Assembly: GCF_004010195.1 (NCBI RefSeq)
Contig: NC_057731.1
Span: 19,955,899-20,019,898 of the forward strand
Direction of reading: 5' to 3'
From: Chiloscyllium plagiosum
Taxonomy: Eukaryota
Length of the DNA stretch: 64,000 nucleotides
The notes below the pieces were generated by a model. It was given only the letters and a program-made list of their open reading frames with translations, did no database searches and had not been told where the DNA came from. The first letter of the stretch is position 1; the number at the start of each line of letters is the position of its first letter. Shown here one piece after another: positions 3,110 to 57,915 of the stretch. Both the position numbers and the translations under genes were made by a program.

Positions 3110-3950
3110 CATGCTTCAAATAGCTTGAGGATTCTTACCAATTGTTGAATGTGGGAGGGAGTGATGTGTGTGAGATCAGGAAGCTTTGTAGGTGCGTTAG
3201 GCCAAGACGTCCACTTAGGCTCATCCTCCCTGCAGCCCTTCTCCTCATCCATACAGGGAGCAAGGATCTCATACCTATTGGATAAGGTCAAGAGCTGAGG
3301 CTCCTTAACTCCTGAACTCAGGATCCCCTAACTATGTCACTTCCACTGACACCTTATTATCCCTGATCACTAACTGAATTTGAATTTCTTAATCCACCGG
3401 GTGTGACTCCTCCTGAAACAAAGTATCCAGATAACTCCCCCCCCACCCTCCCCCCCCCCCCCCCCCCCCATTCCAGATGGGCTGCAGTGTTTGAAGCTCA
3501 GATTCCAGATCATCAATTCTAATCCGGAGTTCTTCCAGCAACCAACATTTGCTGCAGATGTGATCACCTCCGTTCACACTGGGATCAGCCAGCTCCCACA
3601 TCACAAAGATTCAGCACGTCACCTGCCCAGCCATCTCTACTTAGTTAATTAATACGAATTTATGAGTTAAATAATTTCTAGTACTTCTCTGCTACGGTGA
3701 TCTTCCAATAATCAATTAATAGATAAATAAAAAAGAAAATAAATTTTTAACCAATCACACGGTACAGAAGAAATAGAACTAGAAATAGAAAAGCCTTACC
3801 TTATCAACCCACCACAGAGTCCTTTTTATTTTGGTTAGAGGAGGAGGGCGGGTGGGAGACACTACATGTGATGTCTCTAGTTCAACCACTGGCCAAATAT
3901 ACTCCTGGCAGCCCCCGATCTTCGGTGTCGCCTCTCCCTCTGCTCCTGTA
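3110..3950 (-). mobile_element. CR1 LINE 5' fragment (5' UTR plus decayed ORF1 N-terminus)
   Basis: MWELADPSVNGGDHICSKCWLLEELRIRIDDLESELQTL (CxxC plus coiled coil) and LSNRYEIL motifs resemble CR1 ORF1. ATG at 3634. Interrupted by stops and a C-rich run at 3437-3469. Confidence 0.75.
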
Positions 3951-6094: not shown

Positions 6095-6560
6095 TTTATT
6101 TATTCAATGGGGGCACAATTGGCCATGCCAAAGCCTATTGTCCATCCCAATTGTTCTTTAGAAGGTGAGGGAGAGCCATTTTCTTAAAATCCCAAATGGC
6201 GAAGGTTATGCCCATAGGGTCTAAGGTAGGTATTTCCAGAATTTTGGCCCAGTGACAATAAAGTAGTGGTGGGCCACACACTTCCAAGTCAGAATGATCT
6301 GTGACGTGACAGAGACTTGCAGATAGTAGTGCTCCCAAGCATCAATTGTTCTTGCCCTTCTAGGTAGTACAGGACATGGGTTTGAATCAGTGAACAAGCC
6401 TTGGAAGCTTTCTGAAGCATATTTTATAGACAGCAGACACTGCTCCCAATGCACACCATTGGTAGTGGGAATGAATAATTAAGACAGTGAGTTGTTGGTA
6501 TGTCCTGAATAATGTTAAAATTCTTGACTATTATTCAAGTTGCATTTATTCCAACAAATG
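6095..6560 (-). mobile_element. LINE-B (CR1-group) decayed 3' end
   Basis: Homologous by eye to 37330-37750 and 20880-21150. Tail is the reverse complement of caattgggatggacaatagg. Confidence 0.7.
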
Positions 6561-8644: not shown

Positions 8645-8855
8645 ATTCTTCCCTAAAGGATGTTTGTAAACCAGATGAGCATTTCCTAATAATCAGCCAT
8701 GGATTCATGATTATCATTCAATTCTTATTTCCAGATCTTTATTTACTTCAAATTCCACCATCTGCCGTGGCAGAATTCAAACCCAGGTCCCCGCAGCATT
8801 ACTTTGGTCTCTGGATTAAAAGATCAGCAATAATGCCGCAAGCCATCACTTCCCC
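8645..8855 (-). mobile_element. SINE-B 5' half (tRNA-like head and body)
   Basis: Reverse complement begins ggggaagtgatggcttgcgg, has B box GGTTTGAATTC and body catctggtttacaaacatcctttagggaag. Homologous to 24100-24282. Confidence 0.8.
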
Positions 8856-11800: not shown

Positions 11801-12084
11801 GGGATAGTGAGGATAATGAAGAAGGATGAGACAATTCTTAATTAAGACTACCTACTATCTATTTGGGTAACATTGAACTGTTATGGAGTTTGTCATGCTT
11901 GCATTATTACAGGCAGAAGATCAAAAAGACCTCGGAAAGTTACACACCAAATTTAAAATACCCTTTCTTGGTAAACCTGGGTGTTTAAATTTAGCCATAC
12001 ACATTATGGTTGTAGAATAATCCTCTCTTATAATAAAAAAAAGCACCCTTACCACTTGGGCCCTGGTGAAAGCAGAAATCAAGT

Positions 12085-12215
12085 AATAGTCTTTAGGGAA
12101 GGAAATCTGCCATCCCTACCTGGTCTGGTCTACATGTGACTCCATATCTGCCAGAATGTGATTGATTCTTAGCTGTTTTCTAGACAATTAGGAATGAACA
12201 ATAAATGTTGGGCTA
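12085..12215 (+). mobile_element. SINE-B 3' half (body fused to LINE-B tail)
   Basis: ctttagggaaggaaatctgccatccctacctggtctggtctacatgtgactcc is followed by caattaggaatgaacaataaatgttgg, matching the LINE-B tail at 13171-13195. Confidence 0.8.
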
Positions 12216-12749
12216 AAAATTGCTCCAGCAACTTTCCAAAGACCAATGAACCAAGTTCTTAATTGTGAAGTTTAATCTGATGATGTACTGAAACATAGTG
12301 ATACTAGAAAGGGTGACATGGAGTAACTTGGAGCTTTGTTTAGAAAATTACCAGCAGCTGATGGGACAATAAAAACTTGCCAAAAGTGAGTAACATATCT
12401 GAGCAATCAAAGGAAAGGGATATGTGATATGATATACAGCGAAAGTACAAGCAATAGTGGAGTTTTCTGCTCCTATAATTAATGGGAAATAATGAGATGT
12501 TTGGAGATGTGTGTGTTTGATTGCAAAAATAAAGTAAATTACAGCACTATAGTTGCTCCATTGACAAACTCACTCTAACGAAAAGCCAAAGAATTGTCTA
12601 TGTACTAAAAGTTAAAGTCACCGTAACCCTACCAGGCTTTTCTCATTAGAGAGAGAATTGACTGATGCTGGTTTAACCTGGGGGTCATCATGCCTGAGGC
12701 GAGGGGAGAGTTTGGGAAGGAGAGCCCATTGGTGTGGGATATACAGAAT

Positions 12750-13025
12750 TTTGGAAGATGGCAACCAATACATCAATTGTTGGCCATCAGCCTAAACTAA
12801 TGGAAGGTGTCATCAACAGGGCTATTTAGGAGCACCTGCTCAGCAACATCCTGCTCAGTGTCACTCAGTTTGGGTTCTACTGGGGCCATTCTCCTCCTGA
12901 CCTCATTATAGCCTTGGTTCAAACATCGAGGAAAGAGCTAATTTCCAGAGGCGAATTGAGAGTAACAGCCCTTGATATCAAAGCTACATTCATCAGGGAG
13001 CTTCAGCAAAATTGGAATCAATGGA
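12750..13025 (+). mobile_element. LINE-B reverse transcriptase fragment
   Basis: MEGVIN...HLLSNILLSVTQFGF..GHSPPDLIIALVQT..KELISRGELRVTALDIKA (N-terminal RT domains). Confidence 0.85.
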
Positions 13026-13112
13026 ACAGAAACAGAATTGCTGGAAAAACTCAGCAGGTCTGGCAATATCTGTGGAGAGAAATCAGAGTTAACGTTTTGG
13101 GTCCAGTGAAGA
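13026..13112 (-). repeat. Penelope-associated terminal repeat fragment
   Basis: aattgctggaaaaactcagcaggtctggc...aaatcagagttaacgtttt matches the left arm at 36041-36113. Confidence 0.7.
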
Positions 13113-13124
13113 GTCAATTTATTA

Positions 13125-13238
13125 CACATGGATTGCAAAGGTTCAAGAATCACCACCACCTTCTCAAGGGCAATTAGAGATGGGCAATAAATGTATCCAG
13201 GCCAGCAGCATCCACATCCCATGAGTAAACAGAAAAAA
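13125..13238 (+). mobile_element. LINE-B 3' tail
   Basis: ggttcaagaatcaccaccaccttctcaaggggcaattagagatgggcaataaatg...ccacatcccatgagt. Confidence 0.8.
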
Positions 13239-14775: not shown

Positions 14776-15719
14776 AGCGTGTTATAGATAGTACACTACC
14801 CACGCCCCACCAACACACCCCCACCACCACCCTCCGCATTCCTGCCTTCGGTGAGCATCTAAAATTCAATAAGCTAGCGAAACCAATCTAAACAAGCATA
14901 AGAGAGTTAATGAAAGAGTTATACCCCTTCACCCCAATCCAACTGATGCATTACCTGTCAGAATTGTAAATCAATGTTGTAATTAGTTCAAAGTGAGCCT
15001 GCCAATATTCTCTTGGAGAATTCATGGATCGGTCTCTGGATTATTAGACCTGTTATACAGCCATTATACTATCGTGCCTTCTGCTCACTGAAGCCTGTTT
15101 TAACTACTGGTATCATATTTTCCCATCTAGAACATCACAAATGTAGGCTTTAGTAAATGATACATTTGGTCACAATTTGTAAAAACATTACAAAAAAAGT
15201 TATCACAAATTCTGTGGTAACTGCAATCATTGTTGTGAAGAGAAGCTAAAGTAAACCCCTTTTGAATGAATCAAAAAATTGCATAATGCTCCTTCAGTGT
15301 TTTAATTGGTAATATTTTCCTCTTAATTTTCCTTACTTTTCATCCTGTCTTGAAGCTCTCAATGGATTTTTTAATGTTAGGTAATTTTTTTTCCTCCAAA
15401 ATACACCACAAATATTTTTTTCAATCTGCTATCTCAAAGGATAAAAGCATCAGACCCAACGATAAACTCCCTCCTCTAAATTTCCCTCCAAGACACACAA
15501 TATCCTGTTTTGAAAATGTAACTAAATTTCTTCATTGCCATTGGATCTAAATCCTGGAAATTCCTACCTGACACTACTATGGAGAATTAAATGGAATAAT
15601 CATGGCATTTTTCAGTCGATGAACATTAAAGGAATGAACATTAAGAAAACTTAGTTTTAAAGCAGGCATGGGAGAATCAACCTGTTAGTTTCAGTGTGTT
15701 GGAATCTGGTCCAGATAAC

Positions 15720-20878: not shown

Positions 20879-21226
20879 ATTAGGTAGTGAATGGTTTGGA
20901 GGAGAACTTTCAGGTGGTGGTGGTGGTCCCATCTCTCTGCTGCCCTTGATGTTCTGGAGGGTGCTGTCTGAGGACTGTTGGTGAATTTCTGAAATGCATT
21001 TTGTAAATAGTACACTCTGCTGCTACTTGAGCACCTCTCATAGCAGGAGTGGATATTTTTGGATGTGGCACCAATTATACAGGCTGTTTCGTCCTGGATG
21101 GTTTCAAGTTTCTTGAGTGTTGTTGGAGTTGCACTCATCCAAGCAATTGGGAATATTCTGACAAACTCCTAACTTGTATCTTGTAGATGGTGGACATGCT
21201 TTGGGGAGTCAAGAGGTGAGTTACTT

Positions 21227-21795
21227 TAGAGTCATAGAGCTGCAGAGCATGGAAACAAACTATCTGGTCCGACTCGCCCATGCCAACCAGATATCCTAAA
21301 TAAATCTAGTTCCATTTACCAGCATTTGGCCCATATCCCTCTAAACCCTTCCTATTCATGTACCCATTCAAATGCCTTTTTAAATGTTGTAATTGTACCA
21401 GCCTCTACCACTTCCTCTGGCAGCTTATTCCATACATGCATACCCGTCTGCATGAAATATTGCTCCTTAACTCCCTTTTAAAACTTGTCCCATCACTTTA
21501 AATCTGTGACTTCCAGTTTTGGACTCACCCATTCCAGGGAAAATACCTTGTCTATTCACCCTATCCATACCCCTCATGATTGTATAAACCTCTAAGATCA
21601 TCTCTCAGCCTCTAACGCTTCCAGGAAAATAGCCCCAGCCTTTTCGGCCTCTCCTTTTGGCTCAAATCATCCAATCCTGGCAACATTCTTGTAAATCTTT
21701 TCTGAACCCTTTCAAGTTTCACAATATCTTTCCTATAAGAGGGAGACCAGAATTGTATGCAATACTCCAAAAGTGGCCTAACCAATGTCCTGTTC
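21227..21795 (-). mobile_element. HER1-type CR1 3' fragment nested in LINE-B
   Basis: Reverse complement of the family at 22444-22973; tail tagagtcatagag. Confidence 0.9.
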
Positions 21796-22443
21796 TTGCT
21801 GCAGGATTCCTAGCCTCTGACCTGTTTTTATAGCCACTGTGTTTATGTGGCAAGTCCAATCAGTTTCTGGTCAATAATCACCTCCTCAGAATGTTGATAG
21901 GGCAAATTCAGTGATGGTGACACCATTGAATGTCAAGGTGCAGTGGTTAATTATCTCTTATTGAAGATGGTCATTGCCTGCCTTTTGTCAGTCCAAGCCT
22001 GGATATTGTCCAAGTCTTGCTTCATGGACTTCTTCAGTAGCTGAAGAGTTGTGAATGGTACTGACTAATGTGCGGTCATCAGCAGTTTTCACATTGTCAG
22101 TTAGATATCAATGTTGTAACTGTACTGGAACAGTTTGGCTAGGGATGCAGCAAATTCTGTAGCAAAGTAATGCCGGAAAGTTGTCAGTGTCCATGGCCTT
22201 TTCAGTGTCCAATACCCCCAAATGCTTCTTGATATCATGTGGAATGATACACATTGACTGGAGACTGTGAACTGTAATGCTCAAGAAGGCCATTATGGAC
22301 TGTCTACTCTGCATTTCTGGCTGAAGATTGCTCTGAATGCTTCAGCCTTATATTTTGCGCTGAGGTTTTGGGCTCACCTAGTAATAAGAATTGGAATATT
22401 TTGGAGCCTCCTTCTCCAGTCAGTTGTCTAATATTCCACCAAC

Positions 22444-22973
22444 CTACTGGTCTCCTTCCTATCGGAAAGATGTTGTGAAACTTGAAAGGGTTCAGAAAAG
22501 ATTTACAAGGATGTTGCTAGGGTTAGAGGATTTTAGCTATAAAGAGAGGCTGAACAGGATGGGGCTGTTTTTCCTGGAGCATCAGAGGCTGAGGGTGACC
22601 GTATAGAGGTTTACAAAATTATGAGGGGCATTGATAGGGTAAATAGACAAAGTCTTTTCCCTGGGGTTGTGGAGTCCAGAACTAGAGGGCATAGGTTTGG
22701 GGTGAGAGGGGAAAGATATAAAAGAGACCTATGGGGCAACTTTTTCACACAGAGGGTGGTACGTGTACGGAATAAGCTGCCAGAGAAAGTGGTGGAGGCT
22801 AATACAATTGCAACATTTAAGAGGCATTTGGATAGGTATATGAATAGGAAGGGTTTGGAGGGATATGGGGTGGGTGCTGGCAAGTGGGACTAGATTGGGT
22901 TGGGATATCTGGTCGGCATGGACGGGTTGGACCAAAGGGTCTGTTTCCATACTGTACATCTTTATGACTCTAT
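22444..22973 (+). mobile_element. HER1-type CR1 3' fragment nested in LINE-B
   Basis: WSPSYRKDVVKLERVQKRFTRML...TRGH...NFFTQRVV...AGKWD*, with tail ctttatgactctat. Confidence 0.93.
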
Positions 22974-25414
22974 AACTGGATTTGTCAGAACTGCAGAGTT
23001 TAAATTTGATTCATTGTTTGTGGAATCACTTAGCTTTGCCTATTTCTTGTTGTGGTCCTGTTTTGTAGCTTCTGCAGGTTGACATCTGATTTTTAAGTGT
23101 GCCTGGTGCTGCTGCTGCACTCTTCATTGAAACAGGGTTCATTCCCCAGTTGGTGGTAATGGTAGAGAGGGAGATTTGCAGATTGTGTTGGAGTATGGAT
23201 CTGCTGCTAATGGCCAACAGTGCCTCTTGGATGTCGATTCTTGAATTGCTAAATCTGTTTGAAGTCTGTCCCATTTGGCATGGCAATGGTGCCACACATG
23301 GAGGGCATTTTCAAAGGGAAGATGGGGATTTGTCTCCACAAGGACGATGCGGTGGTCATTCTTAACAATACTGTCAAGGATAGATGCATCTGCAGCTGGC
23401 AGATTGGTAAGGATGAGGTCAAGTATGTTCTCCCCTCTTGTTGGTTCCCTCACCACCTGCCACATACCCATTCTAGCAATTATGTCCTTTTGGACCTGAC
23501 CATCCTTTTGCATCCTTTCATCCTCAGAGCATCCTCCAAGTGTTGTTCAATATGCAAGAGCACGGAGTCATCAGCTGAGGAAGGACAGTACATGGTTATC
23601 AGGAGGAGGTTTCCTTGTCCATGTTTAAGCCAAAACCTTGGGACTTCATGGGGTCCAGGGTCAATGCTGATGACTTCCAGGGCAACTTCGACTTGAGTGT
23701 ACACCACTGTGCAGCCACTCCTGCTGGGTCTGTCCTGCTTGGTGGGTCAGGGCATATTCAGGTATAGTGTTCGTGGAGTCTAGGACATTGTCAGGTATGA
23801 TTCTTTTGAGAATGGCTTTATTAGGTTGTTGTTTGACTTATCTGTGAAACAGTGTTCCCAGTCTGGCACTAACCGCAAATGTTAGGAAGAGGGATTTTGC
23901 AGTGTCGACAAGGCTGTTTTTGTCGTTGTTGTTTATGGCTCTTAGGTTGAATCCAGGTGGTCAGTCTGCTATCACTTCTTCTTTAATAGAACTGAGTCAC
24001 TTGCTAGGCCATTTTAGAGCGCAGTTGAGAGACAACCATGTTATTATATGTCTGGAGTCACATGCAGTCCAGAGAAGTTAAAGATGGCAGTTTCCTTCCT
24101 TAAAGGATATTACTGAAGCTGAAGGACTTCTTTTCTGACAATTGACAATAGTTTCATGGTCATCATTAGACTTTTATTTGATTAATTTTGACCCAGGTAC
24201 CATGGCACAATTCAAACATGGGTCCATAAAGCATTACCTGCATCTCGTCTAGCAATAATATCACAAGGCCATCGCCTCTCCCTCTGCTGCAAAAATAATG
24301 AGCAATAAGGGTGACATTGTTCAGGTTTTATCTTTGCCAGTTTTCTTCTATGTTCTACTTCAAAAGTTGCTTTTTCCACATGTTTACCTTACTCCTCTTC
24401 TGGTACCCTGATCAGTTCATTATCAATGTCACCAGAATATGTACTAGTTACTACAATAAGTCATTAACTTTCTTAAAAAAATCACTTTGGACACTATACC
24501 GTAAGTAATTAGCAATTACCTTCTGTGTTCTAATGTCAAGAAATGTCCTCAGAACACATTTTAACTTTATATTTAGGTATTAAGTATTGAACTATTGGAG
24601 GAAGCAATTATGTAGTATAAATGTTGTATGACAAAGTGGTGTTTTATAAATTATTAAATTATTAGAAACTTCATTATAGTGTACTATCGCCTCCCCTTTT
24701 TTTAACCAACTCAGTTTGACATATTACTAACAATATGTATTGGTCACCAGATGACTGTCAATTCAAATTAATCAGTCAGGAAGTTTCCATCTTATTCTGC
24801 TGAAAGTGACTATGAATGACAGTAATAGAGTTTATTGGAAGATGAAATAATGCACCAAATGTTCATTATAACCAAAATGTGGCTGAGTAGTGGCAATAAT
24901 TAAATATAAATAGTGTTCATATAATTTGCAATTGTCACCCTTTCAAAAGTTCATTTACATCATAGCTCTAAATCAGTTTTACAAGCCTCTGACTCATTTA
25001 AGAAAAGGTGATTTATGAAATTCTGGAATGACTCATGAAAAGAGTACAAGTTTAAAATTAATCTGGATTCCATTTTAAATTCAAATGAAAAATGACAGAC
25101 TTGGAACATCAAATACTTTGGTGATGAAGGATGAATGATCAGATTTGAATGATATTTTATCCTTATTTCTATGGCATTGCCTTTTGTTTGAAATAAAGGA
25201 TAGTTTAAAACTCACATTTATCCACAAATTTCTTATTAGTGGCAAAGAATGTTATGGTTCAAGGAATCAAATAAAATGAATCAAAATCACATACATTCAT
25301 GTAATATTTTGCTAGTATAAGCTCCAACACTAATCAATTTTAATAAAATAAGACCTTAAAATAAAGCATGTTATTGCAAACTTTGAATTGTAATTGTAGC
25401 TAGCTTCCTTCCAT

Positions 25415-36040: not shown

Positions 36041-36199
36041 CAAAAACAGAAGTTGCTGGAAAAACTCAGCAGGTCTGGCAGCATCTGTGAAGAGAAATCA
36101 GAGTTAATATTTCAGGTCACCGGATCCGAAATGTTAACTTTGATTTCTCTTCACAGACGCTGCCAGACTTGCTGAATTTTTCATCAACTTTTGCTCTTG
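36041..36199. repeat. foldback (inverted) Penelope-associated terminal repeat
   Basis: About 73-bp arms at 36041-36113 and 36128-36199, e.g. ctgtgaagagaaatca / tgatttctcttcacag. Confidence 0.85.
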
Positions 36200-37329: not shown

Positions 37330-38160
37330 TTTCATACAAGGGATGTGGTTGTCGCTGGCTGGCCAACATTTATTACCCAGTTACCCTTGAGAAGTGGTGT
37401 CTTCTTGAACCGCTGCAGAACACATGTTGTAGGTTGACTCACATGCCCTTATGAAAGGAATTCAAGAATTTTGACACAGCAACAGTGAAGGAAGTTTCCA
37501 AGTCAGGATGGTGAGTGGCTTAGAGAGGAACTTGCAGGTGGAGATGTTCCCATGTGTCTACTGCACTTGTCTCTCTAGATGCAAGTTAGCATGAGTCTGA
37601 GGATCTTTGGTAAATTTCTGCAAAGCATCTCATAGATAGTACACACTGCTGCAACTGAGTGTTGGTCGTGGAGGGAGTGGATGCTAATGGATGTGGTGCC
37701 AATCAAGTGAGTTGCTTTGTCCTAGACAGTGTCAAGCTTGTTGTGCATTGTTGGAGCTGCACGTATCCAGGCAAGTGGGAAATAACTCATCACACTCTCG
37801 ACTTGTCTAGTGCAGATGGTGGTCAGGCTTTAGGGACTCAGCAGTGAGTTATTTGCCACAGCATTCCTAACCTCTGACCTGCTCTGTCACCACTGTGTTT
37901 ATGTGGAAAGTCCAGTTGAGTTTCTGGTCAAAGTAACACCAAGAATTTTGAGAATGGGGGATATGGCATTGGCAAGACTTATTGAAGATGGTCATTGTCT
38001 AGCATTTGTGTGGTGCGAACGTTACTTGCCACTTTTAAGTGTGGATATTATTATCTAGATTCGGTTGCATTTGAACATGGACTGCTTCAGTATCTGAGGA
38101 GATGTGAATGGTGCGGAAAATTGTGCAACATTGGCAAACATCCCTATTTCCAACCTCTTA
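37330..38160 (-). mobile_element. LINE-B 3' portion
   Basis: Tail gggatgtggttgtcgctggctggccaacatttatt; colinear with 20880-21226 plus 21796-22080 once the CR1 insert is removed. Confidence 0.85.
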
Positions 38161-41079
38161 TTAGTGGATGGGTGACTGGATGAATAAGCAAATGGGAAGA
38201 TTGGGTATGCCTGGTGGGTGAGGTGGTAGACTGGTCGGGTGGCATGTATGTTAGCTGGGAGGTGGGTTGCCAGATTAAGTCAGGTCAGCATAGGTATTCA
38301 GATAATAGGGAGACTGTCAGATTTGGCTGGGGAAGAGTCAGGTTGGGATATGGATATTATCAGTAGATCAGGAGTGTAGGCTGCTGGAGAAGCTGAAGAG
38401 GGTGGGTTAGACTGATTGCACAGGATCAGTTTTATGTTGACACAGGAGTTAAATGAGAAGTGATATACAGAACCTTTCACAGTTTCTGATTCCAGCTCAG
38501 GGTCAGAGAGCTTGTTTGCTTCTGTAAAGCAGGAGATTAACCCTTTGGAAGTTCAAACTTCCTTGACAAATGTCACAATGGACATTGGCAAGTCAGCGAG
38601 GTCATGATATGCACCTTCAATTATACTGGAAAGTGTGGGACTATATTTCTCCAGTGTTCAGGTCCTGGAAGGCTGACAACAAGAAACAGTTACTAATCTG
38701 ACTGGAAATGCCATTGTTAAGCAATAATCTTGAGACAAAAACTCTTGAAAAAATTATACTGTGCTGAATGAGGCACATTAATTTCATACTCAGTGCTGAA
38801 CAGCCACAGGTGATCCCAAAAGCATAGTTGTGGAAAGTCAAGTTTCTCCACAATGATAAATCAAAAAAATTACAACGTCAATCTTGTTTTCTGATATTTT
38901 AGCTTCTGGTTAAATCCCACCTGTATATCTCAATTAAATCTAAAAGGATTTAAAGTGAAGTGATTTTCACTTCCTGGTTTATATTCTGTGAGAAGACCGC
39001 AATTTGATTAGTTGCAGTAACTTGCTTGATGCTGGTTTGACACCAGATTCCATTTAACATTGAAAAATACTGTTAGAGGGAGATCACTGTATCTCCATGG
39101 ACAATGTTCTTCAAGGTTAGTTGCAAGCACTGTGACTTTATTCCTACTAACTACAAGATCAGAGCCAAACATAGGCAATGTACATTATCATCAAAATCAC
39201 CCTTTGTGTGGACTTGTTGGGCCAAATGGTCTGTTCCCACACTGTTCGGGATAATATGATGCTATGATTTAAGTTCCCAAATTCAATAATCAGTCAAACT
39301 GGCCAAATGTGATTTATGCTTTATAAATATAAAACTATGTTTCCATTAATTCTTGTTCGAATGGCTGTTTCAGAGAAAGGGTGATGAGTTTCGTGTGATG
39401 CTGTTGGAGGATGAAGAAATAAGGTTGTTTGAAAATAGTACCTGCCTGAAAACCACTTAAAAGGAATATCACACAAGTTTTTCAATAAAATTAATTGCAG
39501 TGCCAGCAATGTATTGAAGCTAACAATTAGCAAATATGTTTCCAAAGACAAAACAAATGCCAACAACTGCCAACCAGTCCACCAACACAGGCAATAAATT
39601 GTTCCAGCAAATCATTTTTTTGCTGCAAACTTATCGGTTTCACAAAAAACAAAGCCAACGTAGCTCAAATAAAACTTTTGCAAATGCTGGAGAAGTAAAA
39701 TCAAAAACAGCTCCAATGAAGGTCAGAATGCACTTGAAACCATTCACTCTGTGTCTCCCTTTACAGATGCTGCCAGACCGGCTCAGTTTCTCGGCACTTC
39801 CTGTTTTGAACCATGGTAATGTCTTTCTACAATATTTTCTCCCAGGGCAGGCCAAAGAGATCATTTCCCAAAATAGTATATCAGATGTATGCAACCTGTT
39901 CAAAGACCATAAATTCAAATAATATTTTTTCAATGCAACATTTTTCTTTACTCAAATTGAAACTTAGAAGGATCAAAGTATACTAAGGGTGCATTTCTAG
40001 CTGCATGCACCATCTGTTAAAAATCATAATTACAGAATAGTTTGAAGCTTTGAAAACACATCATAGGCATTAAAACTGATTTTCAGCATAAACATTTTTC
40101 AAAGGGAAGCTTCAAACTTAATGCGCAGAATACAAATCAGTATTCTATTTGTTTGATTTTTTTTTTGATTTGCAGTGAAATGTAATTTCAAGGTGCATGC
40201 TTCATATTTGTCAAAGCTTTTACTCTTTTGCAGATAACATAGGTACAATTGTATTCTTACATTCACACTGTTTGTGACCTCAGGCTGAAAGACACAAAGA
40301 AACTATAATTGTCAATTAATGCTAAAATAATAACTCACAAACAGCTGTCAATGTAATTGAAAGGCTAATCATGTTCACTGTTATTCATGTGAAGGCAGAT
40401 TTGCAAATAAATTCAGAAGTTAGAACGATGGACTACAACATTAATTTTCAAACAAAAAACATCTCACTGTCTGATAAACCTTGGAAATGCATTGATTGCC
40501 ATGATGTTATTGTAGATGATGTGGTGGATATGAATTAAATTTGCCACAGAAAATGACAGCTCTTTTGAATTAACAGAAAGAGCCTTTTTAGGGGCAATTT
40601 ATGAACATTTAATTAAGCTTGGATAAACTGTCAAAGATCCTTCTAACAATGTGCTAATTATTAGTTACTTCCAATGATCCATCTCGCTACTGTAAATTAA
40701 TTATTATGAGTTTGGCATCTCATTTACTTCAGCTATAATTATTGTTGGAGATATGTTTTAAATTGTTGTTTCACTTATATTTTCTGAGTTGCATTTGCTA
40801 TTTGTATCGGGTTAGAGAGGGAGGTGTTGGCAGCCATTGTGAGGGGTGGTAAATATCTTCAAACCAGTATGGCACATTGCAGACATTTCAGACACCTTCG
40901 GGCTGCAATAAAGGACAATTCTAATTGCTTGGACATTTGTCCTGATGTTGAGATGACCCCTAGCCACGTGGGATGACCTCCTGGGAGACCCTGACTGCCT
41001 CCCAGCCTGGCCTCTACTCTACCATTACCACAAAATGAAGGGACCAATCCTCTTTCATTCAAGAGTACACGATGGCCTG

Positions 41080-41660
41080 ATCAGAACAGCATCGGACACA
41101 CCTAAAAGTAACTTGTGAACCTGGAGAAGCTATAACAAAAGATGAGCAGCATGCAAAACAAAGAGCTAAGCAATCTCAAAACCACTGGATCAGATCTAAG
41201 CTCCACATCCAGCCATGAATGATGGTGGTAAAATAATAACTAATAGTATGATGAAGCAGGATTAATGATGTGAGAGGCCAGAAAATCAGTATAAAAAAAA
41301 ACAAGGCTGAAGCATTTGCATCCACCTTCAGCCAAAGCTGTGTTGTGAATGATCAACCTTGGCTTCATTCAGTGCTCCTCATCATCACAGGTGTAAGTAT
41401 TCCACCACTGCAAATTATTCTACTTGATATAAAGAAATAGCTGATGACTTTGGGTCCTAACAACATTCCAACAATAATATAGTTGCACCCTTAACCAAAA
41501 TGTTCCTATGCAGCTACCATACTGGCATCTATTCAATAATGTGACAAATCACCCAGGTATATATAACGTTCATAAAAAGGAGGACTAATCCAAGGCAACC
41601 AATTCCCAGCCCCATCAGTCTGCTCTGAATCTTCTGTGATATAATGAAATGGATAGTCCA
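41080..41660 (+). mobile_element. old LINE-B internal fragment (EN-RT linker)
   Basis: WIRSKL, KAEAFASTFSQ, GPNNIP and PISLL motifs, with many indels. Confidence 0.7.
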
Positions 41661-55039: not shown

Positions 55040-57915
55040 AATATAGATGCAAGGGTAAAGTTTATTCAAATAGGTCAGAAGTAGCAGGTAAAGGGGTTAC
55101 AATATTAAGGGACACAGGATCCTCAGTCTGTGATGCTGAAGGATGAGGAGATATATACTCCTGAGGGATTATTGTCAGAAAAGGTATTGGTAACAGGAAT
55201 TCATGGTGAGACAAAAGTGCTCAATTATGTAAAGTGAGGCTAGACAGTCCAGAGAAGAGTGGAGAATTTGTGGTAGGAGTACTGGACAAACTCTTAGTTC
55301 CAGGAATACAATTTGTCCTTGCCAATGATATAGCTGATTCACCAGTGGCTGTGCTGCCTAATCTAGTTGAAAAGCCAGTGGAGATGCAGGCACCTGAACA
55401 AATGAATAATGCTTTTCCAGGAATTTCCCCAGAATGGGTGGTCACAAGATTATAGAGGCACAAGTTGAAGCAGGAGAGGTCAAGAGGAACAGGTAAGGAA
55501 GCTGACCTGAGACTTCTTTTGATCAGATAAGTGGGGCAGAGCAGGAGCAACTAGGTAAACGTGCAAGTATCTTTAGTTCTGCTATGCTTATTGAGTTACG
55601 GCAGAAAGATGAGAAGTTAAAATAGTTGTATTAAAAGGAATTTACAGAGAAGGAGCGTGAATGTATCACTTATGTGTTATTACTTAACAAATTATGTCTT
55701 AATGAGAAAATGGAGACCATCACACATTCAAGCTGATGAGAAATGGGCGGAGATTCACCAAATTGTTTTGCCAGTAGGGTATAGAAAGGAGGTGCTGCAA
55801 GTGGCGCATGAAGTACCAGGTCATTTAGGGGTGAGGAAAACACAGGCTAAAATACAAATCATTTTTACTGGCCTGGACTACACAAAGATATAGTTGAATT
55901 TTGTCAGACGTGTCACATATGTCAGTTAATCGGAAAACAACAAGCAGTAATAAAATCTGTACCTTTAATATTTATTCCAACATTTGAGGAACCTTTCACA
56001 AGAGTCTTAATTGATTGCATAGGTCCCCTATCGCAAACAAAAAGTGGAAATAAGTATTTATTAACAATAATGGATGTGTCGACTAGATTTCCGTAGGAAT
56101 CCCATTATGCAACATCACAGCTAAAAAGGTTGTAGAAGAATTACTTAAATTTTTTACTAGATACAGACTATCAATAGAGATCCAGTCAGATCAAGGATTG
56201 AACTTCACATCCAAATTATTCAAGGAGGTGAGGGATAACTTGACAATAAAGTAATTCATATCTACTGTATACCATTCCAAATCGCGGGGAACGCTAGAAA
56301 GATGGCATCAAATACTAAAGACCAGGCTGAGGACTTATGGTCAGGATTATTCAGACGATTGGGATAAGGGAGTTCCATTTGTACTTTTTGCAGTCAGAGA
56401 TATACCAAATGAATCAACCAAATTCAGTTGTTTGAATTAATTTTGGGGCAAGAAGTAAGAGAACCATTAAGATTGATTACGGAGAAATTAATAAATCAGA
56501 ATTCAGAGACCATCCATTTGGACTCTGTGTCAAATTTTAGAAAACAATTAAATAGAGCTGGAGAGTTGGCTGGACAGCATTTAAAAGTATCACAGCATAC
56601 AGTGAAACAGGAAGCGGACAAGAAGTTACAAATGCACAATTTTGCAATTGGGGATAAGGTATTGGTGGTACTTCCAGTAACAGGTGAACCTTTAAAATCA
56701 AGATTTGTTGGATCTTATCAAATAGAGAAGAAATTTGACACAGGTTCAGAAGGATATAGAGTGCATGCTCCAAGATGGCATAAACAAAGTGAGTTACAGT
56801 GACTGGAGCTCACCTATAGTCATGGTGCCAAAGTCAGATGGTACCCAACAGTTATGTGTGGACTATCACAAAGTCAACACCATTACAAAGACTGCTGCAT
56901 ATCCAATTCCACAGTTGGAGGACTGTGTCGAGAAAGTAGGACAAGCAACTTACATTTCTAAGTTGGATTGCTTAGAGGCTACTGACAAGTACCTGTCAGA
57001 GCAAAAGCAATTTTGACTTTTGTAAAGCCAAGTGGACAATATCAGTTCAAAGTCATGTCATTTGTTATGAAAAACGCTCCAGCCATATTTCAGAGACTGA
57101 CTATAAGGTCATTGCTGGGTTACCCAATTGTGTTGTTTACATTGATGACCTGATGTTTTTTAGTCACTCATGGAAGGAACATTTACATCATTTATTGGAC
57201 TTGGTGGTAAACCTCGTTAAAAGTGAATTTGCCAAAGCCCAAGTCACCTTCATGGGCCATGTTATTGGACATGGACAAATGGCCCCACAAGATGCAAAAC
57301 GAGAATAATTGAGGAATTTCCCACACCGTTGACGAAAAAAGCAGTACTACGGTTCCTGGGATTGAGTGGATTTTACCGAAAGCTTGTGCCGAACTTTAGC
57401 AGTGTGGCAGCTCCTCTCACCGAATTGTTAAAAAAGCGCAAGAGGTTTCAGTGGACAGCAGACTATCAAAACGCATTTGACAGCCTAAAAACTGTGTTAA
57501 CCACTGTCCCAGTATTAGCCACACCAGAATACACAAAGTCTTTCAAGGTGGCTATCGATGCCAGTGATGTGGTTTTCAGTGCGGTGCTCCTGCAGGAGGA
57601 TGATGAGGGGATAGAAAGACCCACTGGAAATTTTTCCAGGAAGTTGAACGTTCATCAACAGAAATATTCAATGGTGGTGAAAGAGACTTTAAGCTTGGTG
57701 TTGGCCTTACAACATTTCAATGTTTATATTACCAGCAATGCATCTGAGACAATCATATACACTGATCATAACTCATTGACATTTGTGGAAAAAATTAAGG
57801 ACAAAAATGCCAGACTGTTTAGATGAAGCTTGTTGTTACAGCCATTCAATTTGACAATTGTGCAGGTGGCAGGTCACAAAACCGTGATTGCTGATGCATT
57901 ATCAAGACTTGAATG
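55040..57915 (+). pseudogene. pol: pol remnant: protease - integrase - RT - RNase H
   Basis: ILRDTGS (~55110); AHEVPGHLG..CQTCHIC, IDCIGP, SDQG and LERWH (55800-56310); WSSPIVMVPK..LCVDY and YIDD (56800-57150); IDASD, YTDHN and IADALSR (57550-57910). Confidence 0.93.

What the first reader, a model, noticed from the sequence alone, without database searches (positions are those of the whole stretch)
23700..24282. LINE with a tRNA-like (Pol III-type) 5' end and no room for ORF1
Seen in sequence: on the minus strand the element starts GGGAGAGGCGATGGCCTTGTGA (A-box-like) ... GTTTGAATTG (B-box-like), continues through a SINE-like body to about 23990, and reaches the APE endonuclease N-terminus about 80 bp later (~23910). 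The SINE's own 3' tail (caattagg...caataaatg, seen at 12185-12210) is absent at this junction, which argues against a chance SINE insertion. Established: CR1-group LINEs usually carry ORF1 and a Pol II-type 5' UTR. Inference: an autonomous single-ORF LINE that captured a tRNA-derived promoter or 5' UTR. I cannot tell whether this is already catalogued.
Basis: partly seen in the sequence, partly recalled or inferred. Interest (0 to 1): 0.7.

Follow-up and report, generated by a model that had tools for sequence, protein, structure and literature searches.

The report
tRNA-headed shark Zenon LINE
This is a decayed copy of an abundant 3.3-kb shark-and-ray jumping gene whose copies begin with the tRNA-like head of a short SINE and whose single enzyme-coding strand almost lacks the stop signals of RNA polymerase III, so it is likely a protein-coding element copied by a polymerase that normally makes only short non-coding RNAs.

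Summary
Observation confirmed, and it holds across the family. With an endonuclease-side query, 29 of 29 other copies carried the SINE-derived sequence upstream and 20 reached the head. The full element is about 3.29 kb: tRNA-Thr-like head, SINE body, one EN+RT frame, A-tail. It matches the elasmobranch Zenon consensuses of Stuart et al. 2026. That paper already reports that Zenon lacks ORF1 but never mentions tRNA. The local SINE is the first 318 plus the last ~72 nt of this LINE (23 of 30 loci). Two subfamilies differ with pN/pS 0.19, so the element was autonomous. Their sense strands hold 0-1 minimal Pol III terminators against ~11 expected; the antisense strands and a CR1 control show no deficit. 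Pol III transcription is likely (~0.7) but untested. No in-frame AUG precedes the endonuclease, so how it is translated is open. This scan has reported the same family before, in other genomes and elsewhere in this one.

The parts
24190..24283 (-). tRNA-derived head, closest to tRNA-Thr(AGT), with an insert of about 20 nt between anticodon arm and B box; 5' end of the element
   Evidence: Best of the distinct own-genome tRNAs compared, z=7.0; 4 of the top 5 are Thr. Homology among 44 copies begins sharply at a G run.
24261..24271 (-). Pol III A box (decayed in this copy), about 10 nt from the 5' end
   Evidence: Sequence; family majority
24208..24218 (-). Pol III B box (decayed in this copy)
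   Evidence: Sequence; alignment of copies
23990..24189 (-). SINE body shared with the local SINE up to element nt 318; read as the Deu domain of SacSINE1 (label recalled, not checked against a published sequence)
   Evidence: description in PMC5499810
23992..24017 (-). Predicted hairpin with a 7-nt anticodon-like loop at the end of the shared body; its possible pairing partner just downstream is deleted in this copy
   Evidence: Inner-stem pair probabilities 0.67-1.0 in the two subfamily majority lines; alignment
23902..23989 (-). LINE-specific leader: open Arg-rich stretch in the EN frame with no AUG; a conserved AUG lies out of frame (GTG at 23975-23973 in this copy)
22975..23901 (-). Single ORF, part 1: APE endonuclease and linker, broken by stops and frameshifts
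22447..22977 (+). Inserted 3' end of a CR1 LINE, about 94% identical to the CR1 majority line
21795..22441 (-). Single ORF, part 2: RT region, with about 530 nt missing at 22086/22083
21227..21793 (-). Second inserted CR1 3' end, about 83% identical to the CR1 majority line
20883..21225 (-). Single ORF, part 3: C-terminal region; the last ~200 nt of the element are absent
12084..12240 (+). Partial partner SINE: body (element nt 195-286) followed by a tail like this LINE's 3' end

Best explanation
This is a dead copy of the elasmobranch Zenon LINE, a 3.29-kb single-ORF retrotransposon whose full-length copies begin with a tRNA-derived SINE head, and which was likely transcribed by RNA polymerase III from the A and B boxes in that head. 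Shown: the head-body-EN junction across the family, the shared 5' start, purifying selection on the ORF, the strand-specific lack of terminators, and a partner SINE made of the LINE's first 318 and last ~72 nt. Inferred: a Zenon LINE acquired the head and body of its own partner SINE by template switch or recombination in the ancestor of sharks and rays; Pol III started at the G run about 10 nt before the A box and read 3.3 kb because terminators had been purged; the EN-RT protein was made without an in-frame AUG and copied both LINE and SINE RNA through the shared tail. The route of translation is not settled.
For: Junction in 29 of 29 EN-selected copies. Sharp 5' end shared with the SINE. 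Head closest to tRNA-Thr. Subfamilies A (13 copies) and B (28 copies) both carry the head and differ by 61 synonymous and 39 non-synonymous changes, pN/pS 0.19, P 2e-16. TTTT and TVTTT are the shortest working terminators in mammalian assays (PMC8466645, passages): A has 0+1, B has 0+0, against 6.1+4.8 expected; antisense strands have 20+16 and 25+18, as expected; CR1 control has 21+10. Five-base windows with four or more T: 2 vs 12-15 in dinucleotide shuffles (P<=0.004); 1 vs 12.4 in codon shuffles of B (0 of 1000), while CR1 has 57 vs 60. Native frames of other LINEs have T4 observed/expected of 1.01 (CR1) and 1.19 (L1-like), against 0.32 in 41 decayed Zenon copies. All 7 elasmobranch Zenon consensuses begin with this head; the 2 hagfish and 1 coelacanth ones do not and contain T runs (first 400 nt only, by eye).
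Against: No experiment shows Pol III transcription. The RNA reads laid were uninformative: both orientations, no start site, one of two raw runs gave nothing. Absence of TTTT alone is not significant under codon-aware or dinucleotide nulls (P 0.08-0.14); the signal comes from T3 runs and 4-of-5-T windows, tests I chose after seeing the data. A and B are one lineage, not two samples. A small Tx1-like control set also had a low T4 ratio (0.44; 4 runs in 4.9 kb). Low Phe (1.7%) is shared with an amphioxus relative (1.5%) whose DNA I could not see. An AATAAA near the 3' end of A and of the SINE could serve Pol II polyadenylation, though B lacks it. Pol III RNA is not m7G-capped (recalled), which makes translation hard to explain.
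Confidence: 0.7

Rival explanations
1. The head is a passively carried 5' UTR, and the LINE is transcribed by Pol II from an internal promoter or by read-through from host genes. The T-poor strand has another cause.
For: LINEs are described as Pol II transcripts (PMC10886601 passage). TTTT absence alone has P about 0.1. AATAAA near the 3' end in A. A capped RNA is easier to translate.
Against: The deficit is specific to T-rich motifs on the sense strand and survives codon shuffling; CR1 shows none. The LINE and the SINE start at the same place. Both boxes are kept in five other species.
Confidence: 0.24
2. The direction of origin is reversed: the tRNA-headed Zenon is ancestral and the SINE is its internal-deletion derivative, which would make a LINE 5' UTR the source of the Deu body. 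This concerns history and is compatible with Pol III transcription.
For: The SINE is exactly nt 1-318 plus 3214-3286 in 23 of 30 loci. A second, shorter junction near nt 286 exists. Moth Zenon elements make such derivatives (PMC6740152). Kojima 2018 proposes LINE 5' UTRs as the source of SINE bodies.
Against: The same head and Deu body occur in chimaera and coelacanth SINEs (PMC5499810), while Stuart et al. list no Zenon for chimaera and the coelacanth and hagfish Zenon 5' ends are unrelated. The coelacanth consensus is mostly low-confidence there. Present-day shark SINEs could still be re-derived from the chimeric LINE.
Confidence: 0.25
3. The element is non-autonomous: without an AUG its ORF was never translated and another LINE moved it.
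For: The first in-frame ATG lies 128 (A) or about 250 (B) codons past the start of the endonuclease.
Against: pN/pS 0.19 between the two head-bearing subfamilies; 65 of 100 changes at third positions. Subfamily indels in the leader are 3 and 6 nt.
Confidence: 0.03
4. A SINE inserted by chance upstream of a truncated LINE at this locus only.
For: None beyond the decayed state of the window copy.
Against: The same junction in dozens of dispersed copies with unrelated flanks and in five other species.
Confidence: 0.01

Closest known systems
Elasmobranch Zenon (CR1-Zenon) LINEs: CarCar_Zenon-1, RhiTyp_Zenon-1, ScyCan_Zenon-1, HypSab_Zenon-1, SquAca_Zenon-1/2/3 (Stuart et al. 2026, PMC13343379)
   Same: Same 5' 400 nt by eye, same length (3244-3314 nt for the -1 families vs 3286-3288 here), single EN+RT ORF, no ORF1, A-tail.
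   Different: The paper has 0 occurrences of 'tRNA' in main text and searchable supplement. The head, its sharing with a SINE, the terminator deficit and the missing AUG are not in the passages I read.
SacSINE1 / SacSINE1-CM / LmeSINE1 Deu-SINEs (Luchetti et al. 2017, PMC5499810)
   Same: tRNA-like head, Deu body and LINE-derived tail in sharks, skate, chimaera and coelacanth. The local SINE has this layout.
   Different: Described as sharing only the tail with a LINE (L2-2_CM). Here the SINE shares head, body and tail with one LINE. Identity of the local SINE with SacSINE1 is recalled; the published sequence could not be opened.
Lepidopteran Zenon and its internally deleted element Persaeus (PMC6740152)
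   Same: Single-ORF Zenon with a non-autonomous partner made of its 5' and 3' ends.
   Different: Persaeus has no tRNA, 5S or 7SL homology and no Pol III promoter.
RTE-1_DAn and relatives (one sentence in Kojima 2018, PMC5786205)
   Same: A LINE noted to contain a tRNA-like sequence.
   Different: RTE clade; position and function of the tRNA-like part are not given, and such hits were removed from that analysis.
Dicistrovirus IGR IRES, pseudoknot I (PMC3517527, start of abstract in a search listing)
   Same: A tRNA-like codon:anticodon mimic that starts translation at a non-AUG codon; here an anticodon-like loop has an in-frame complement just downstream.
   Different: Only this one element is suggested. 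No Rfam IRES match in three copies, no covariation, and the region folds no better than shuffles.

Membership tests
Zenon (CR1 group) | Single ORF with APE endonuclease and RT, no ORF1 | tested here: met
   One long frame from nt 295 to about 3227; only about 420 nt precede EN; Pfam hits.
Zenon (CR1 group) | Poly-A tail | tested here: met
   A-rich tails after the conserved end in most copies that keep it.
Zenon (CR1 group) | Sequence match to published elasmobranch Zenon consensuses | tested here: met
   First 400 nt and total length agree, compared by eye; the rest of each cell is cut.
Zenon (CR1 group) | RT falls in the Zenon clade of a labelled phylogeny | tested here: inconclusive
   FastTree on 71 RT regions puts it among invertebrate proteins (one from amphioxus), away from shark CR1, but no row is labelled Zenon and local support is weak.
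Canonical CR1 | Esterase ORF1, or clustering with elements that have it | tested here: not met
   No room for ORF1; about 24% identity to this genome's CR1 ORF2 and a separate branch.
tRNA-derived SINE head (type-2 Pol III promoter) | A and B boxes in a tRNA-homologous 5' segment | tested here: met
   Both boxes in the family majority; alignment to own tRNA-Thr. Not called as tRNA by Rfam.
Pol III transcription unit | No internal terminators on the transcribed strand | tested here: met
   0 TTTT and 0-1 TVTTT in 3.29 kb.
Pol III transcription unit | Pol III occupancy, B-box dependence, uncapped 5' end | not testable with these tools
   Needs ChIP or transcription assays; the poly-A reads gave no start site.
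SacSINE1 (Deu-SINE) | Match of the body to the published Deu domain | not testable with these tools
   Supplements with the sequences could not be read; the label is recalled.
IGR-type IRES | Triple pseudoknot with pseudoknot I setting a non-AUG start | tested here: inconclusive
   Hairpin predicted and in-frame complement present, 2.7% in shuffles but post hoc; no Rfam hit; folding z 0.04-1.39.

The most novel reading that the evidence does not exclude
Shark and ray Zenon is an autonomous LINE transcribed by Pol III whose uncapped RNA is translated without an AUG: the end of the SINE body forms an anticodon-like hairpin that pairs with a conserved in-frame Ala codon, as in pseudoknot I of dicistrovirus IRESs. 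The Deu body, conserved across animals and co-opted as enhancers in mammals, would then have a defined RNA function in a LINE.
Probability: 0.2. Interest if true: 0.9.

Novelty: new variant of a known kind. Interest (0 to 1): 0.65.

Why it matters
The usual division is that SINEs are short, non-coding and made by Pol III, while LINEs code for protein and are made by Pol II (PMC10886601, PMC3531059, passages). A 3.3-kb LINE that kept a tRNA-type promoter across sharks and rays and purged Pol III terminators from its coding strand would break that division. It would be a natural protein-coding Pol III transcript, so cap-independent, AUG-less translation becomes directly testable. It also shows module exchange running between a SINE and its LINE at the 5' end, and ties the Deu body, whose origin Kojima 2018 leaves open, to a LINE. 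In practice, repeat annotation of shark genomes likely splits these copies into a SINE and a LINE fragment.

Tried and rejected
ARAGORN on the window: no tRNA. Rfam on three copies: no tRNA, ribozyme or IRES; only hits to an unrelated palindrome in L070. Pfam on the window copy's six frames: nothing. Word-index protein search for longer relatives of the EN piece: none at E<=1e-10. PDB: no real hit. Looking for DNA of invertebrate relatives in metagenome contigs: the alignment had no usable pattern and the single protein found none of 26 candidates confirmed, so whether those relatives have tRNA heads is unknown. Run search: no RNA holder listed. Reads laid on one copy showed coverage in both orientations and no start site; not used as evidence. 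Target-site duplications: none evident by eye in 20 copies. T runs at some 3' ends were not read as built-in terminators, because A-to-T change in A-tails is described for SINEs. Translation from the conserved out-of-frame AUG with a -1 shift: leader changes between A and B are mixed in the EN frame (4 synonymous, 6 not) and I saw no conserved slippery site, so it is neither supported nor excluded. The first CR1 control query hit a different repeat and was replaced. One region (L206) missed the hairpin. Literature: 9 searches answered; none listed a paper on a tRNA-headed Zenon or a Pol III-transcribed autonomous LINE. Repbase, Dfam and most subscription journals were not searchable, and Nishihara et al. 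2006 was not held.

Full report
Observation. The minus strand shows the head at 24282, A- and B-box-like motifs, a SINE-like body to 23990 and the endonuclease start near 23900. A junction query in the 3.56-Gb own genome gave 41 matches from 40 scored of 670 candidates. Aligned copies share sequence from 24281-24283 through the endonuclease and have unrelated flanks. Two of those 30 loci were SINEs that leave the alignment at 23990. As a fairer test I used an EN-side query: 29 of 29 non-self loci carried SINE-derived sequence upstream, 20 reached the head, and 9 began inside the body.

Anatomy. Twenty longer copies define an element of about 3.29 kb with one EN+RT frame, about 420 nt before the endonuclease, and an A-rich tail. 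The majority line has one frameshift at a G run that varies among copies, which I read as an artefact. Those 20 copies are 83-91% identical to the majority. The window copy is 71-77% identical, carries two CR1 3'-end insertions, and lacks about 530 nt of RT and the last 200 nt. The head aligns best to own-genome tRNA-Thr(AGT), with an insert of about 20 nt. Among 44 copies that reach the start, homology begins at a G run about 10 nt before the A box. The local SINE is nt 1-318 joined to nt 3214-3286 in 23 of 30 loci; 5 more ended at 318 without a reported tail hit, 1 was a LINE and 1 gave no hit.

Identity. The closest proteins are 30-38% identical invertebrate elements, several on contigs of only 3.3-4.1 kb, one named from amphioxus and one from a moth, plus fragments from three shark genera. 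A tree separates the element from this genome's CR1, with weak local support. Stuart et al. 2026 (PMC13343379; abstract, passages, methods, section 18, supplement rows) report Zenon in elasmobranchs, coelacanth and hagfish, always without ORF1 and with a poly-A tail. Their 7 elasmobranch consensuses from 5 species begin with the same head; the hagfish and coelacanth ones do not (first 400 nt, by eye). 'tRNA' occurs 0 times in that text and in the searchable supplement. So the family and its missing ORF1 are known, and the head appears unremarked in what I could search. The SacSINE1 label for the SINE is recalled and fits the description in PMC5499810 (parts 1-2 of 6).

Autonomy. Forty-one copies split into subfamilies A (13) and B (28). 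Both carry the head. Of 188 differences, 126 passed a Fisher filter at P<0.01; the 100 in the ORF are 61 synonymous and 39 non-synonymous, pN/pS 0.19. Head-bearing masters therefore depended on their own protein.

Polymerase. A Pol III transcript cannot contain terminators. TTTT and TVTTT are the shortest working ones in mammalian assays (PMC8466645, passages). The A and B majority lines hold 0 TTTT and 1 or 0 TVTTT, against about 11 expected from base composition. Their antisense strands match expectation and the CR1 control has 31. Five-base windows with at least four T number 2 against 12-15 in dinucleotide shuffles, and A, C and G show no such deficit in that measure; in codon shuffles the count is 1 against 12.4 (0 of 1000), while CR1 shows 57 against 60. 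Against this: TTTT absence alone has P 0.08-0.14, G4 runs are also somewhat low in B and in CR1, the tests were chosen after the first look, there is one lineage, and a small Tx1-like set was also low. RNA reads did not help. I put Pol III at about 0.7.

Translation. No in-frame AUG precedes the endonuclease; the first is 128 or about 250 codons in. A conserved AUG about 75 nt before the endonuclease is out of frame and its frame stops inside the first strand. The EN frame is open from nt 295 and Arg-rich, like the N-terminus of the closest relative. Subfamily indels there are 3 and 6 nt. Options are a near-cognate ATC, a -1 shift from the AUG, or a structure-driven start. For the last: a hairpin at the end of the SINE-shared body has a 7-nt anticodon-like loop, and its complement, an Ala codon plus one base, lies 11-12 nt downstream in the EN frame (2.7% of shuffles, post hoc). 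In A that codon shows CpG decay. By eye the codon is in the EN frame in four published consensuses while the spacer before it varies by one base; in SquAca_Zenon-1 it is in the AUG frame, a counter-example. No covariation, no Rfam hit and unremarkable folding energy keep this at about 0.25.

Origin. The head and Deu body also occur in chimaera and coelacanth SINEs, whose lineages show no head-bearing Zenon in Stuart et al.. Capture of the SINE's 5' part by the LINE in the shark-ray ancestor is the simpler reading. The reverse is not excluded. [quoted passage not shown]

Other papers seen: PMC6740152, PMC11481361, PMC10886601, PMC7245038 and PMC3531059 as passages; PMC5804259 supplement search only; PMC3517527 as a search listing. 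Supplements of PMC5499810 and PMC3531059 could not be read and bear on the SacSINE1 label.

Verdict. A real family-level feature: a known LINE family with an apparently undescribed tRNA-type 5' end and good circumstantial evidence for Pol III transcription. New variant of a known kind; interest 0.65. The scan has reported it before: all 8 notes shown describe this family, 7 in other genomes and 1 elsewhere in this one.

Noticed in passing
L033, L042, L052 (and L216 one base away): Three dispersed copies are 5'-truncated at exactly element nt 188 and one at 187; chance or a preferred stop or cleavage site in the body.
   Followed up: no
window 57227-57826 (+): Open frame with RT_RNaseH domains of LTR-retroelement type.
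   Followed up: no
window 37331-38189, 41001-41652, 12785-13221, 6095-6544, 15426-15569, 8648-8854: Further fragments of the same Zenon family or its SINE in this window.
   Followed up: partly
L070 776-959: Near-perfect palindrome of about 180 nt outside the LINE, giving spurious miRNA-family scores.
   Followed up: no
L078 (also L045): Tandem duplication of about 340 nt of the 5' UTR in front of an otherwise normal copy.
   Followed up: no
L061-L080, L218-L237: Many copies keep both ends, which is unusual for CR1-group LINEs; the sample was chosen for having the 5' part, so the true share is unknown.
   Followed up: partly
window 36059-36182 and 1165-1824: Inverted repeat pairs: 60-nt arms 4 nt apart, and 168-nt arms 324 nt apart.
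   Followed up: no
L169: A tRNA called Val(TAC) by ARAGORN has the long-arm body of the Ser(TGA) gene in L168, probably an anticodon-mutated copy.
   Followed up: no
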